From Eledone cirrhosa (Eukaryota): a stretch of 64,000 nucleotides of DNA. The notes beneath the pieces were generated by a model. The model saw nothing but the letters and a program-made list of their open reading frames with translations. It had not been told where the DNA came from and searched no databases. Positions 35,701 to 54,749 of the stretch are shown piece after piece. Within the stretch, counting starts at the first letter, position 1. Each line of letters starts with the position of its first letter. A program made the position numbers and the translations under genes. Location: assembly GCA_964016885.1 (NCBI GenBank), contig OZ024763.1, forward strand, positions 6,758,001 through 6,822,000. The letters are read 5' to 3'.

Positions 35701-36752
35701 ATATAAATGTGTGTATATATATATATATATATGTGTATATATATGTGTGTGTGTATATATGTATATATGTGTGTGTGTATATATGTATATATGTGTGTGT
35801 ATATATATATATATATATGTGTGTGTGTATATATATATATATATGTGTGTATATATATATGTATATATATATATCTGTATATATATGTATATATATGTAT
35901 ATGTATGTATATGTATATATATGTATATGTATGTATATGTATATATATATATATGTATATATATATATATATATATGTATATATATATATATGTATATAT
36001 ATGTATATGTATATATATGTATATGTATATATATATATATATATATATGTATATATATGTATATGTATATATATATATATATATATATATATATGTATAT
36101 ATATGTATATATATATATGTATATGTATATATATGTATATATGTATATGTATATATATGTATATGTATATATATGTATATATATGTATATGTATATATAT
36201 GTATATATATATATGTATATGTATATATATGTATATATGTATATGTATATATATGTATATATATGTATATGTATATATGTATGTATATGTATATATATAT
36301 GTATATGTATGTATATGTATATATATATGTATATATATGTATATATATGTATGTATATGTATATATATATGTATATATATGTATATATATGTATGTATAT
36401 GTATATATATATATATATATATATATATATATATGTATATATATATATATGTATATATATGTGTATATGTATATATGTATATATGTATGTATATGTATAT
36501 ATATATATGTATATATGCATGTATATGTATATATATATATGTATATATGCATGTATATGTATATATATATGTATATATATATATGTGTGTATATATATAT
36601 ATATGTATATATATGTATATATGTGTGTATATATATATATATGTATATATATGTATATATGTATATATATATATATATATACTATCCAGAGAATATCCAA
36701 CTGATAAGGTATGATTTTCCTGGGTATGTCTCTATTTATAAAACAAATTTTG

Positions 36753-36815
36753 TATTTTATCTGAAGATAGCGTACCAAAGTCTTTTGGTACCCTTGAAAT
36801 ATATATAATAAAATA
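36753..36815 (+). ncRNA. Minimal type I hammerhead ribozyme in a dispersed repeat (36683-36955)
   Basis: tattttat-CTGAAGA-tagcgtaccaaagtcttttggtaccctt-GAAA-tatata-TA-ataaaata: 8-bp stem I, stem II gtaccaa/ttggtac, palindromic stem III. Confidence 0.75.
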
Positions 36816-37235
36816 AATATGGTTTTATAAATATAGTTTCCATTTATTTAATATCATTGAATATTTACTCCAGGAACTTGTTGAGTGCTCTAAATCAGCT
36901 ATAAACATTTATATTTATATTTGTCGGATTTCCAACAAATTAAATACCTCTTCTACTTATATATATATATATATATATATATATATATATATATATATAT
37001 AATGACCACACGTGAACTGGCCGCTAGTGAAAGCGGGAATATTACAGACGTGTTGATGGCTTTGCTGCTAAAAAAATAGCAGTAAGCAACAACAAATTTT
37101 TTCTCTACACACACATATATATATATATATATATATATATATATATATATATATATATGGAATGTAGAAAAGTTTCGCTTATCTGGACTTGTGCCTCGGA
37201 AGAGAATATTCTTGAATTTTATGTTTATTTTCTTT

Positions 37236-37364
37236 TTGGTTCTGAAGATGAGGTCAGTTCTTGGTTCAGTTATATTATCATCAGCTCTTATTGATTATAT
37301 AATCGATAATTTTCATTTTTATGAACTGAATTTTGATCTGATTTCTGAAACAATTGTAGACCAA
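37236..37364 (+). ncRNA. Type I hammerhead ribozyme with ~98-nt extended stem II
   Basis: ttggtt-CTGAAGA-[tgaggtcag..ttcagtt...aactgaa..ctgatttct]-GAAA-caattg-TA-gaccaa. Confidence 0.65.
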
Positions 37365-40300
37365 TAAATATATATGTTCAAGAACTCGGTATTGTATTCT
37401 CTAACAAGTAATTTTTATATTAGTGCTCTACCTATACACTTTTTACTTAACATATATTTCTCTTGTTTACTTTCATTGTTCGCTTGTCTTGCACGTTATA
37501 CACATTGAGCACTCTGTCTCCTTCACTACTGGCTTATAAATCTCACTACTATTCTCCTTTCTCTCATTCTTGATTGGTTTGTACAAATACTTTTGATACA
37601 TACTTATATATATAAATATATATATATGTATATATATACATACATACATACACACACACACATATATATATATATATGTATATACATACATACATACATA
37701 CATACACACACACACACACACACACACACACACACACACACACACACACACACACACACATATATATAAGGAAAATACGTACATACATACGTAGGTACAT
37801 GCATACATAAAAACACACATGCATATATACATGTGAACGCGTGGTGAGCATTCCTTAACGTATCTCTCAGGGAGATGCTAGAGTAAATTGGACACATTTT
37901 TGGATCATTCCCCAAACCAGTACAGTTTAGGTCACGTGATATAACATTGCACCAAAATGGAATCTTAAAAATGTAATTGGTTGATGTAACTAACAGATGT
38001 ACACACACACATATATATGTATATATACATGTATATATACATATATATGTAAATATATACATGTATATATATACATGTATATATATACATATATATGTAA
38101 ATATATATTTGTATATATACATGTATATATATATATATGCATGTATATATACATATATATATACATGTATATATTTACATATATATGTATATATACATGT
38201 ATATATTTACATATATATGTATATATACATGTATATATTTACATATATATGTATATATACATGTATATATTTACATATATATGTATATATACATGTATAT
38301 ATTTACATATATATGTATATATACATGTATATATATACATGTATATATATATATACATGTATATATATACATGTATATATACATATATATGTAAATATAT
38401 ACATATATGTAAATATATACATGTATATATATATACATGTATATGTAAATATATACATGTATATATACATATATATGTAAATATATACATGTATATATAC
38501 ATATATATGTAACTATCTATATACATATATATATATATATATATATACATATATATACATGTATATATATGAATATATATATATATATATAATTATGTGT
38601 GTTACATACACACACGATTTCTCACACCCACACATACACACACACACACACACACATATATATACATATATAAAGAATAAATATGTATGTATATGTGTAT
38701 ACACCACACAAACACGCGCATGTAAACTGGTTGTTAGCCTCCAACCATGTATAACAATATTCACCCCACCCCCCGCACACACAGTACCCCACCCCACCCC
38801 ACGGTGTCTTGACCCACTCCCCTCCCACTCCCCTCCCACCACCCTCCGCCCCTCCCACCCTCAGCCATGTAACGAATAAGTAAAAGTACAACCATAACAT
38901 ATCTTGGCACCATCTCCTTCACCTCTCTCCCCCTTACCCCCTCCCCTCTCTCTCTCCTTCATCTATATCTCTCTTTCTCACCCCCTCTGTAAACACATAC
39001 ACACACACACACACACACACATATATATATATATATATATATATATATATATATATATATATATACATACAGGGCGTTTGCACGCAGGTTAAAATGAAAC
39101 TAAAAAAAAAGAAACGGACACGTGATTTAGCGTCATATATATGTATATATATATATATATATATATGTATATATGTATGTATATGTACACACACACATCT
39201 ACATACATACATATATACATACATATATATACATATATATGCATATATACATATGCATACACAAATATATGCATACACATATATATCTACATACACATAC
39301 ATATATATGCATACATATATATATGTACACACACGCACACACACACACACACACACACACACACACACACATATATATGAAATAGAAAGTGAGGAGTAGG
39401 TGGAGAGAGAGAGGTGTGAGGCAGCAACCGTTTCTAGCGTTCCCCTCACACAGTCTATGTAAAACAAACATAAGACATCTCACCAACCATGTAGTGAGTG
39501 TTATGAAACACTTGTGTAATGAAACACACACACACACATACACTGATACACACACACACACACACGCACACACACTGATGCAGAGACACACACACACACT
39601 GATGCAGAGACACACACACACACTGATACAGAGACACACACACACTACATATACACAGACACACACTGACACACACACACTGATACAGAGATACACACAC
39701 TACATATACAGAGACACACACACTGACACACACACACACTAGATATACATACACACACTACATATACAGAGACTCACACACACACACTAGATATACAGAC
39801 ACACACACACTGATACAGAGACACACACTGACACACACTAGATATACAGACACACACACACTGATACAGATACACACACACTGATACAGATACACACACA
39901 CTGTCTACAATAGACACACACACACTGTCTACAATAGACACACACACACTCTCTACCATAGACACACACTCTACAATAGACACACACACAGTCTACTATA
40001 GACACACACACACACTACCATAGACACACTTACACACACACACAACACACGCACCATAATCGCATCACACACACTGCACACACATGCACACTTCACACAC
40101 ACAACCTGCACACTATTATACCACACATCACCCCATAATCCCCACATATTTACCAAAAACCACACACACACAGTCACACAACATACCACACACTACACAC
40201 CACACACTACACACATTCACATACTAAAATCACACACGCTCAACACATATATATACACGCATACACCATCACACCACACGCATACACCATCACACCACAC

Positions 40301-52498: not shown

Positions 52499-52770
52499 TA
52501 TGATGGCTGCAAACTCTGCTAAGAGTATTGCAATCGCTTGTTAGATTATAGAGTTTGGTGCACTTTTAGGCTACGGCCAGCCACACAAACCTGTAACATA
52601 TCCTGAACAAGCAATGCCTGTGCTTTGAAGGGTTTTTTTTTAAGTAGAGAAAGGCCTTGCACCCGACCAATCCCACTCTCTGAGCATCGAAAATACTACC
52701 CGAAAAGGAGAACTGGTCAACATCATCGCAGAGTTTCCCTTTCCAACAACTGGGGGCCTTTTCACTCCCA
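52499..52770 (-). mobile_element. Retroposed element sharing the 3' tail of the RTE LINE at 14910-16412
   Basis: Reverse complement of 52499-52545 matches 16366-16412 at 43 of 47 nt (hand count). Confidence 0.7.
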
Positions 52771-53824
52771 TATATACATACATAGAAATATACATACATA
52801 TACATATATATATATATATATATATATATATATATATATATATATACAATGTTTTACCATGACCCCCTCCTATTACTCTGCTAAGAACCCATATCAGACA
52901 TATTTCTTTCCCTTGAAAGATGATCCAAGTGAAACAGTGGAACATTCTCGTATATTACATCGCTGGAATCACTGGAACATCCACTTAGCTTCACATTATA
53001 TTATATTACATCGCTGCAAACATAAAGTAAAAATAATATCGCTGACACCATTTTGTATTTGTTTTCTGGGTTTGGGGGATTTTTTTTTTTTTTTTTTTTT
53101 TTTTTTTTTTTTTTGCTGCAAGCAATACAGAATAAAATGGCGTCATATATGTATGTATGTCTGCTGTATGTGTATATATATATATATATATTATATATTT
53201 GTAATATATATATAAATATATTTGTAATGTATATATATATATATATATATAAATATATTTGTAATGTATATATATATATATATACATATAAGTACACACA
53301 CACACACACACACACACACACACACACACACACACACACACACACACACACACACACACACACACACACACATATATGTATATATGTGTATGTATATATG
53401 TACAAACACATACACACACACACACACATATATATATATATATATACAGAGAGAGAGTTCCACAACAGTTAGTTCACTATTACTATATATTTATATATAT
53501 ATATATATATATTATATTTATATATATATATATATATTTATATATATATATATATATTTATATATATATATATATATACATTTGTATTTGTTCTACCAAT
53601 CTTCCAGTAATTATAATTATGGAGCCCAAATGCACTCTTAGCGAAGGTAAGTAATAATACTAATTATAGAATCTCGGTCAGGTGTGTGTATGTGTTGACT
53701 GTTTATCTTCACACACACTAATATTTATACACACACACACACACACACACACACACATATATATATATATATATATATATACAATATTAAATAAATGGAA
53801 AACTATATTTATAAAAACCATATT

Positions 53825-53890
53825 TATTTCATTATATATATTTCGGGGATATCATATTAACAATATGTTATGCCTTCATCAGACAAAATA
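53825..53890 (-). ncRNA. Minimal type I hammerhead ribozyme
   Basis: Minus strand: tattttgt-CTGATGA-aggcataacatattgttaatatgatatcccc-GAAA-tatata-TA-atgaaata. Stem I is fully paired with two G:U pairs. Confidence 0.72.
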
Positions 53891-54749
53891 CAATATAAAC
53901 AGTTTTATAGATAAATATATTCGACATACCGTAATAAACATCAACTTCATTTGAAGAGGTTTACGCTAGCAGTGAAAATACAGAGAGAAAGAAAGAGAGA
54001 AAGAAAAGAGGGAAAAACGAAAGAAAGAAAGACAAAGAAATATATATAATGATATGATAATGATAATAATATGATATCCCCGAAATATATATAATGAAAT
54101 AAATATGGTTTTATAAATATAGTTTTCCATTTATTTAATATTGTAAATATACTCCAAATATTTGTCGAGTGCTTTTATATCAGTTATAAATATTTACTAG
54201 TTGTAACCCAACAATTTTAAATATAACTTTACATGTATATATATATATATATATATATATATATATATATATATATATATATATATATATAAACGCAAGG
54301 AAGCTGTTAAACAGCAAAATGCCGTCAATGACAGCGTCAGGAAAAATTTAGCTCAAAGGCCAGAAATGAGCGGCTGGAAGTGTGTTGGCCTCCAGAACTG
54401 ATAGGAAGAATGGAGAGAAGGAAGTAAATGGACGAGAGAAGATCACACAGACATTTAAATACACGCATCAGCTTTTCGACCGCCTGCGGTTTCGGCGATT
54501 CATCTAAAATATGGCACGTTGCAACAGAGAAATAATTGTTTCTGTTGGTAAGATGTTTGTCTAAGGAACAAATAGATTAGACAGACAGATAGACAGGTGA
54601 GAGAGATAGAGAGAGAAATACAATGCATCCACTCGGCATCAGGTCCCGGCTAGAAAAAACAACAACAAAGACACTGGTTGTGGAGGACGGAGGTGGCTGC
54701 AAGCGGAAGTGAAGTGAAGTGAAGAGCAAGAGCGGCACGTAGTATCTGC

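What the first reader, a model, noticed from the sequence alone, without database searches (positions are those of the whole stretch)
36683..54230. Family of short dispersed repeats carrying minimal hammerhead ribozymes with palindromic stem III
Seen: three related motifs (36753-36815 +, 49751-49814 +, 53825-53890 -) with CTGANGA and GAAA cores, 8-bp stem I and the same GAAA-tatata-TA segment. Stem II differs in sequence yet still pairs, and stem I changes in the third copy are G:U-compatible. A fourth at 24638-24712 shares the 3' half. All lie in ~200-300-bp non-coding units inserted in (TA)n with no adjacent ORF. Known: Penelope-like elements carry minimal type I hammerheads with palindromic stem III that cleave as dimers, and non-autonomous hammerhead retroelements (retrozymes) exist in animals. 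Inference: a non-autonomous, ribozyme-bearing Penelope-dependent family that may target TA microsatellites; GIY-YIG relics at 31395 and 62262 show candidate partner lineages.
Basis: partly seen in the sequence, partly recalled or inferred. Interest (0 to 1): 0.75.

Follow-up and report, generated by a model that had tools for sequence, protein, structure and literature searches.

The report
Hydra-type Penelope retrotransposon ribozyme stubs
These short repeats are cut-short end pieces of a very abundant, protein-coding jumping gene of a known group (Hydra-type Penelope elements); each carries that group's known hammerhead RNA motif, predicted but not shown to cut itself, and their fixed start and end points likely record where the element's RNA begins and where copying starts.

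Summary
The hammerheads are real and sit at the stated coordinates. Stems co-vary and the core is fixed across subfamilies. The 'non-autonomous family' reading fails. The units are 5'-truncated pseudo-LTR pieces of an autonomous Hydra-clade Penelope-like element: the genome holds 36,576 exact matches to the motif's 3' half, and the same sequence flanks intact 737-742 aa RT-endonuclease ORFs. Hammerheads and (TA)n targeting are published for this clade.

Three details were not found in print. Copies end at two fixed sites, one of each in 65 of 68 two-armed insertions, 2-10 nt before a twice-repeated bulged hairpin. 5' ends pile up at an initiator-like site, with an extra G in 11 of 22, likely a cap scar. 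Junctions are not enriched at the ribozyme cut (14 against 16 and 12). The stubs are therefore likely run-off copies of the front of an uncut, capped mRNA. This scan already noted the twin hairpins (this genome, other DNA) and the extra G (other genomes). No RNA data; cleavage untested. New member of a known kind.

The parts
36681..36959 (+). Copy 1: single arm of the pseudo-LTR/5'UTR, from the initiator-like +1 to the long 3' end, inserted in (TA)n
   Evidence: 89-90% to both pLTRs of L082
36753..36815 (+). Type I hammerhead, copy 1 (U.U at the first stem II pair); predicted cut after 36807
36681..36689 (+). Putative transcription start (+1 A of an initiator-like YC-ACT site); 5' junction hot spot
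   Evidence: inferred; no RNA data
36724..36729 (+). Splice-donor-like GTATGT about 43 nt after the putative +1, conserved in this lineage
   Evidence: 300 of 399 arms; no spliced copy seen
36867..36889 (+). Bulged hairpin 1, just 3' of the short end site; a second copy follows the long end in full-length elements
49656..49674 (-). Copy 2, left arm: 19-nt stub of the long 3' end, inverted
49675..49858 (+). Copy 2, right arm: starts exactly at the putative +1, stops at the short 3' end
49751..49814 (+). Type I hammerhead, copy 2 (A-U first stem II pair); predicted cut after 49806
53782..54036 (-). Copy 3, short-ended arm; reads through the putative +1 (53973) into the CT-rich 3'UTR; youngest subfamily
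53825..53890 (-). Type I hammerhead, copy 3 (A.C at the first stem II pair); predicted cut between 53833 and 53832
54067..54237 (+). Copy 3, long-ended inverted arm; begins inside stem II (no CUGANGA), holds hairpin 1 at 54151-54173
24596..24707 (-). Copy 4: older, diverged Hydra subfamily; full core, long stem II, 5' stem I strand lost; short end

Best explanation
The units are 5'-truncated insertions of the hammerhead-bearing pseudo-LTR of an autonomous Hydra-clade Penelope-like retrotransposon, likely made when the element's enzyme copies only the front end of its own RNA into a TA microsatellite. Shown: pLTR-ORF-pLTR units of 3.4-4.2 kb with a 737-742 aa RT plus C-terminal endonuclease; two fixed 3' ends about 90 nt apart; back-to-back arms with one end of each kind; a 5' junction hot spot; no junction excess at the ribozyme cut. 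Inferred: RNA polymerase II starts at the initiator-like site 127-141 nt upstream of the cut; the protein binds two copies of a bulged hairpin in the 5'UTR and primes from both strands of a (TA)n break a few nucleotides 5' of each hairpin; both cDNAs pass through the uncut hammerhead and often run off at the cap, leaving an extra G and giving the 180-290 bp stubs. The hammerhead is kept by selection in the multiplying lineages and most likely cuts only as a dimer or with the protein's help, to release or circularise unit-length RNA from tandem transcripts; the window copies are dead products.
For: Family size 36,576 exact 31-mer matches, reversed control 0. 21 complete ORFs with all tested motifs in 40 loci picked for long frames. 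Hydra motifs RWR37, DKT118, YRDD352, CxCX5C598, CxxC696, CxH726 against PMC8557442 section 11. Model pLDDT 90, best fold match telomerase TERT, E 3e-9. Core in 110 unselected arms: C3 106, U4 108, G5 108, A6 108, G8 109, A9 107, with position 7 free (T74, A15, G12, C8), while stem II differs at 291 of 3336 positions. 93.9% of cells paired, all 10 stem II pairs with double changes, stem III palindrome changed TATATA to TGCGCA. Long plus short in 65 of 68 two-armed insertions, 19 of 20 in the unselected set. Ends 2-8 nt (94 of 114 short arms measurable) and 3-10 nt (73 of 74 measurable, 108 long arms) before a hairpin. About 66 of 190 arms start within a few nt of the putative +1. G before +1 in 11 of 22 against 18 of 186 other breaks. 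Cut-site junctions 14 against 16 and 12 at control sites. Agrees with internal priming at two sites on uncut RNA in Poseidon (PMC11167929) and a pLTR promoter in Penelope (PMC2377424).
Against: No RNA run holds the element, so start site, cap, cleavage and circles are unobserved. The extra-G excess weakens to p 0.01-0.07 if G is expected in 25-33% of junctions, and the 186 control breaks include subfamily divergence points. The active monomer fold is 3.7-5.2 kcal/mol above the minimum and the AU palindrome duplex is weak, -3.2 kcal/mol. The youngest subfamily has A.C and copy 1 has U.U at 10.1-11.1, where PMC4209133 reports a highly conserved G-C. Hairpin pairs 2-5 were fixed by the search pattern, and the A-U to G-C change at its base is one event. 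Many upstream pLTRs extend far beyond the putative +1, which a capped unit RNA cannot template. Pfam gives no hit on P0001. Shuffle controls ignore relatedness.
Confidence: 0.8

Rival explanations
1. A non-autonomous retrozyme/SINE-like family: the 180-290 bp stubs are themselves transcribed and re-copied in trans by a Penelope enzyme.
For: Stubs have recurrent 5' and 3' boundaries and far outnumber ORFs; long stubs keep +1, the hammerhead and hairpin 1; animal retrozymes are proposed to derive from pLTRs (10.64898/2026.07.22.740005).
Against: Same sequence flanks intact ORFs at up to 99%; lengths form a continuum; flanks and arm junctions differ from copy to copy; stubs lack hairpin 2, yet long ends are as common as short ones (108 against 114); no tandem arrays of the unit were seen in the loci fetched.
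Confidence: 0.07
2. Full-length and more-than-unit copies come from a ribozyme-cut, re-ligated circular RNA, while stubs come from capped linear RNA; the hammerhead switches the template from abortive to productive.
For: 5' and 3' pLTRs of one element are identical over 145 nt in 11 of 23 and closest to each other in 17 of 23 (4 ties, 2 not), and over 600 nt in 8 of 12; 13 of 23 ORF arms end at the long site; no run-off at the cut. Proposed in PMC4209133.
Against: Tandem master loci such as L171, read-through transcription or template jumps explain the same; cleavage was dispensable in vitro for Poseidon (PMC11167929); no circle observed.
Confidence: 0.3
3. The hammerhead is no longer catalytic in the youngest subfamilies and is carried along or serves as a protein-binding or splicing element.
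For: A.C or U.U first stem II pair in multiplying subfamilies; unfavourable active fold; low activity reported for metazoan PLE hammerheads (PMC4209133).
Against: All catalytic positions fixed while position 7 and stems turn over; U...U at this place is common in published Hydra hammerheads.
Confidence: 0.12
4. The 5' hot spot is a polymerase stall or recombination site rather than a transcription start.
For: It lies just 3' of a pyrimidine-rich tract; some arms continue through it (117 of 190).
Against: It falls on YC-A(C/T) in four diverged groups, carries a non-templated G even when joined straight to (TA)n (L048, L065, L152, L325, L342), and a donor-like site follows at about +43, as the Penelope intron does at +46 (PMC2377424).
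Confidence: 0.15

Closest known systems
Hydra clade of C-terminal EN+ Penelope-like elements (Craig et al. 2021, PMC8557442; section 11, passages and supplement parts 1, 2, 52 read), e.g. Hydra-1_Obim, Hydra-2_Amil
   Same: Single RT-EN ORF with RW[K/R], DKT, CxCX5C, CxxC, CxH; canonical type I hammerhead near the 3' end; (TA)n target; inverted 5'-truncated partner; one-sided tail.
   Different: Unit is 3.4-4.2 kb (published: generally under 3 kb) owing to a 1.2-1.4 kb 3'UTR; tail about 90 nt (published 30-40 bp for PLEs); hammerhead sequence unlike Hydra-1_Obim's (read by eye); tens of thousands of copies with intact ORFs; hairpins and start site not described in that main text.
Poseidon_Ac in vitro (Frangieh et al. 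2024, PMC11167929; parts 1-2 of 4 read)
   Same: Two internal priming sites define the tail; both DNA strands extended; AT-rich target; uncut RNA is the template; hammerhead needs protein.
   Different: Different clade; start sites there lie in the ORF in one AC-rich stem-loop and showed no strand difference, whereas here they lie in the 5'UTR before two separate hairpins and pair one-long-one-short in 65 of 68 insertions.
Minimal hammerheads of metazoan PLEs (Cervera and de la Pena 2014, PMC4209133; parts 1-2 of 4 read)
   Same: Type I, long stem II, palindromic stem III, mostly solo motifs from truncated PLEs.
   Different: Stem I is 8 bp, the palindrome is 8 nt, 10.1-11.1 is mostly A-U rather than G-C, and a C at stem II position 4 is invariant and unpaired.
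Metazoan non-LTR retrozymes (10.64898/2026.07.22.740005, part 1 of 5 read; PMC7229834, listing only)
   Same: Non-coding, type I hammerhead, related to pLTRs.
   Different: Retrozymes are tandem non-coding monomers; these are dispersed or inverted truncated pieces of a coding element.

Membership tests
Hydra-clade PLE | Single ORF, telomerase-like RT followed by C-terminal endonuclease | tested here: met
   742 aa ORF, YRDD at 352, best fold TERT; GIY-YIG Pfam only weakly in 6 of 67 homologs, none on P0001
Hydra-clade PLE | DKT in place of DKG; RWK-type motif | tested here: met
   DKT118, RWR37; DK[TS] in 104 of 121 and ADKG in 0 of 121 proteins
Hydra-clade PLE | CxCX5C linker; CxxC and CxH near the C-terminus | tested here: met
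   598, 696, 726
Hydra-clade PLE | Absence of the CCHH motif of other PLE endonucleases | not tested
   Not seen by eye in P0001; no alignment to CCHH-bearing ENs made
Hydra-clade PLE | Canonical hammerhead in the pLTR; (TA)n insertion | tested here: met
Hydra-clade PLE | Groups with published Hydra RTs in a tree | not testable with these tools
   Published proteins could be read but were not available as inputs; likeness judged by eye
Hydra-clade PLE | Generally under 3 kb | tested here: not met
   Unit 3434-4165 nt; a tendency in the paper, not a strict criterion
Naiad PLE | N-terminal endonuclease, DKA, no canonical hammerhead | tested here: not met
Neptune / Penelope-Poseidon PLE | DKG and CX2-5CxxC linker (Neptune) | tested here: not met
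   DKT and CxCX5C instead
Type I hammerhead ribozyme | CUGANGA, GAAA, NUH core with three helices that co-vary | tested here: met
   stem I 3' strand, GAAA and UA were part of the search pattern
Type I hammerhead ribozyme | G10.1-C11.1 closing pair | tested here: not met
   A-U 18, G-U 3, G-C 2, unpaired 4 of 27; copies 1 and 3 unpaired
Type I hammerhead ribozyme | Self-cleavage | not testable with these tools
   No RNA data
Non-LTR retrozyme | Tandem non-coding monomers each with a hammerhead, no ORF in the family | tested here: not met

The most novel reading that the evidence does not exclude
This young, intact, very high-copy Hydra element records the whole Penelope cycle in DNA: a protein dimer docks on two RNA hairpins in the 5'UTR and primes once on each broken strand; on capped, uncut RNA it runs off at the cap and leaves stubs, and only after the hammerhead has cut and closed a unit-length circle can the same two start sites yield full-length, pseudo-LTR-regenerating copies.
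Probability: 0.25. Interest if true: 0.7.

Novelty: new member of a known kind. Interest (0 to 1): 0.35.

Why it matters
As a ribozyme finding it is ordinary: hammerheads in Hydra-clade Penelope elements are published. Its value is as a test system. How Penelope elements choose their two priming sites, make inverted arms, regenerate pseudo-LTRs and use their hammerheads is open (stated in PMC8557442, PMC2377424 and PMC11167929). Here intact ORFs, thousands of near-identical copies, a candidate start site and two candidate binding hairpins give specific positions to mutate.

Tried and rejected
Rfam scan of the whole window was swamped by microsatellite hits. First reading of the ORF as Neptune was dropped after the motif comparison. 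Pfam and PDB sequence searches found nothing useful. No RNA holder listed; laying contigs of two runs of unknown kind gave nothing on expression. Run-off at the ribozyme cut: not enriched. A first distance-to-hairpin estimate was inflated by TA matches and replaced; a first core count was mis-anchored in 25 of 106 arms and replaced. Spliced copies: none among fetched loci. A pLTR-to-ORF read-through copy of the copy 4 subfamily was not found, so its second hairpin and intact ORF are unshown; 3 of 30 loci have inverted RT or EN fragments with stops. Luense et al. (PMC5785218) is not held; known here only through PMC6765202 passages. Literature searches for the hairpins, the long-short rule or a cap G in PLEs found no such report ('hairpin' 0 times in PMC8557442 main text); subscription papers and bioRxiv supplements were not visible.
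Full report
Observation. The three hammerhead motifs are in the sequence as described, with predicted cuts after 36807 and 49806 and between 53833 and 53832. A type I descriptor found copy 2 and a separate motif at 20850; 2 of 100 shuffled windows gave any hit and none gave an 8-bp stem I. Copies 1 and 3 escape the descriptor because the first stem II pair is U.U or A.C. 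The fourth copy has the whole core on the minus strand but has lost its 5' stem I strand. Rfam was uninformative.

Family. The window lies in a 3.0 Gb genome; the closest named protein relatives are from Argonauta hians, so a cephalopod host is likely (inference). Copy 1 has 3190 candidate relatives, the 40 scored at 95-98%; copy 3 has 578, the 40 scored at 99%; copy 4 has 1231. A 31-letter pattern over the 3' half of the hammerhead matches 36,576 times, reversed control 0. Many copies continue upstream for more than 1 kb into an endonuclease frame, or downstream into an ORF start. Fetching 40 loci chosen for long frames gave pLTR-ORF-pLTR units of 3434-4165 nt and 21 complete 737-742 aa ORFs with all four motifs tested. 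Copy 3 is 97-99% identical to such pLTRs; copies 1 and 2 are 89-93% identical to those of an older, frameshifted subfamily. Copy 4's subfamily has RT or EN fragments with stops in 3 of 30 loci.

Clade. P0001 has RWR, DKT, YRDD, CxCX5C, CxxC and CxH, which are the marks of the Hydra clade in PMC8557442 section 11; that paper's supplement lists (TA)n targets, canonical hammerheads and an Octopus member. The model (pLDDT 90) matches telomerase TERT best. Pfam misses P0001 and gives GIY-YIG weakly in 6 of 67 homologs. No tree with published Hydra proteins could be made.

Ribozyme. In 27 distinct motifs picked to span subfamilies (of 87 distinct), 93.9% of cells pair, all 10 stem II pairs show double changes, stem I varies only by G:U, and the stem III palindrome changes from TATATA to TGCGCA; slid controls pair at 34-56%. 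Stem I's 3' strand was partly fixed by the pattern, and shuffles ignore kinship. Anchoring only on sequence after the cut, 110 of 111 unselected arms could be scored: the six fixed CUGANGA positions held in 106-109, position 7 took all four letters, and stem II differed from the nearest reference at 291 of 3336 positions. Of 103 spacers, 101 keep a self-complementary helix (TATATA 50, TATGTA 50, TACGTA 1). Against easy activity: the active monomer fold lies 3.7-5.2 kcal/mol above the minimum, the AU dimer helix is only -3.2, and the usual G10.1-C11.1 pair is rare. Low, dimer- or protein-dependent activity is what PMC4209133 and PMC11167929 report for such motifs.

3' ends. Arms stop at one of two sites, about 50 and about 140-150 nt after the cut, and go straight into (TA)n. 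Of 68 two-armed insertions, 65 have one of each, 3 have two short and none two long; 19 of 20 in the set taken in genome order. Arms too short to hold the 31-nt anchor, such as copy 2's 19-nt stub, were not counted. Each site lies just before a bulged hairpin (4-bp stem, 2-nt bulge, C-G pair, variable top): 2-8 nt in the 94 of 114 short arms that could be measured, 3-10 nt in 73 of the 74 measurable long arms. The hairpin persists in diverged subfamilies; its unforced pairs are Watson-Crick in 47 of 60 cells against 31 shuffled, though few independent changes underlie this. By eye, the published Hydra-2_Amil 3' end and Hydra-1_Obim 5' region hold a similar hairpin. This fits PMC11167929, where two internal priming sites define the tail and both strands are extended.

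5' ends. Arm lengths are continuous but pile up 120-141 nt upstream of the cut. Of 190 arms that reach that region, 117 read through, 34 begin at the A of a YC-ACT site and 39 a few letters later; I judge 7 of these 73 to be read-through variants. Window copies 1 and 2 begin exactly there. Where the native letter before the A is C, a G stands in 11 of 22 junctions (8 of 12 in the youngest subfamily) against 18 of 186 other breaks (binomial p 0.002-0.07 by the assumed background). An untemplated G is read as a cap scar in L1 (PMC6425141), Penelope's promoter and start lie in its pLTR with an intron 46 nt downstream (PMC2377424), and a donor-like GTAYGT sits about 43 nt after the site here. Calling the site initiator-like rests on my recall of the consensus. 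Junctions at the ribozyme cut are not enriched genome-wide: 14 against 16 and 12 at two control positions.

Mechanism. Most likely the protein binds the front of its own capped, uncut RNA at two hairpins, primes on both strands of a (TA)n break and often runs off at the cap, giving the stubs. Longer copies need a template that extends upstream of the start: the two pLTRs of one element are closest to each other in 17 of 23 cases, which suits a circle made by the hammerhead but also tandem master loci such as L171. These cannot be told apart here. No RNA run holds the element.

Other items in the finding. The relics at 31395 and 62262 look like decayed endonuclease pieces by eye, the first Hydra-like, but neither matches P0001 or 120 homologs; nothing ties them to these units.

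Earlier notes of this scan. Twin hairpins and the long-short rule were noted elsewhere in this genome and the extra G in other genomes. I had noted the hairpins (note) and the G (note) before those look-ups; notes on two fixed outer ends in retrozyme arrays were seen before my pair count. They are AI notes and not independent support.

Verdict. Real hammerheads; a new, very abundant member of a known clade; not a non-autonomous family. The end-site details are testable and were not found in the papers searched.

Noticed in passing
window 20809-20940 (hammerhead 20843-20903, +): A second, unrelated hammerhead family with a near-palindromic 9-nt stem III and an inverted arm; 1059 candidates; no Hydra ORF in 12 loci; several copies abut Hydra insertions in the same (TA)n.
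   Followed up: partly
window 24720-24860, also 5094-5186, 8576-8705, 21388-21478, 40835-40912: Abundant repeat joined to copy 4, with a hammerhead-like GAAAC segment and long hairpin; may be the rearranged-hammerhead family of other notes.
   Followed up: no
window about 31395-31790 (+): Decayed Hydra-like endonuclease fragment followed by a CTGATGAG motif near 32240.
   Followed up: partly
window about 62262-62400 (+): GIY-YIG relic of another PLE type.
   Followed up: partly
window 36724-36729 and 49718-49723: Conserved splice-donor-like GTATGT about 43 nt after the putative start; if used, the intron could include the hammerhead. No spliced copy among fetched loci.
   Followed up: partly
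alignment A1 column 19 (window 36771, 49769): Invariant C in stem II that faces C or U in all 27 motifs; possible tertiary contact.
   Followed up: no
L155:3862-4010, L032:1345-1506: A 9-12 bp long-range stem closes just before the start codon and encloses hairpin 2 in most read-through 5'UTRs.
   Followed up: partly
L091:7410-7480 (-), L237-L266: Diverged Hydra subfamily with a GC-rich stem III palindrome (duplex -10.5 kcal/mol), 1150 candidates; best candidate for a cleavage assay.
   Followed up: partly
L171 (G000:C997:31500-41400): More than two tandem units with three pLTRs, a possible master locus or rolling-copy product.
   Followed up: no
L279, L283, L286: ORF-bearing copies whose 5' edge falls at the long end site, preceded by microsatellite; may be re-insertion into the element's own TATA.
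   Followed up: no
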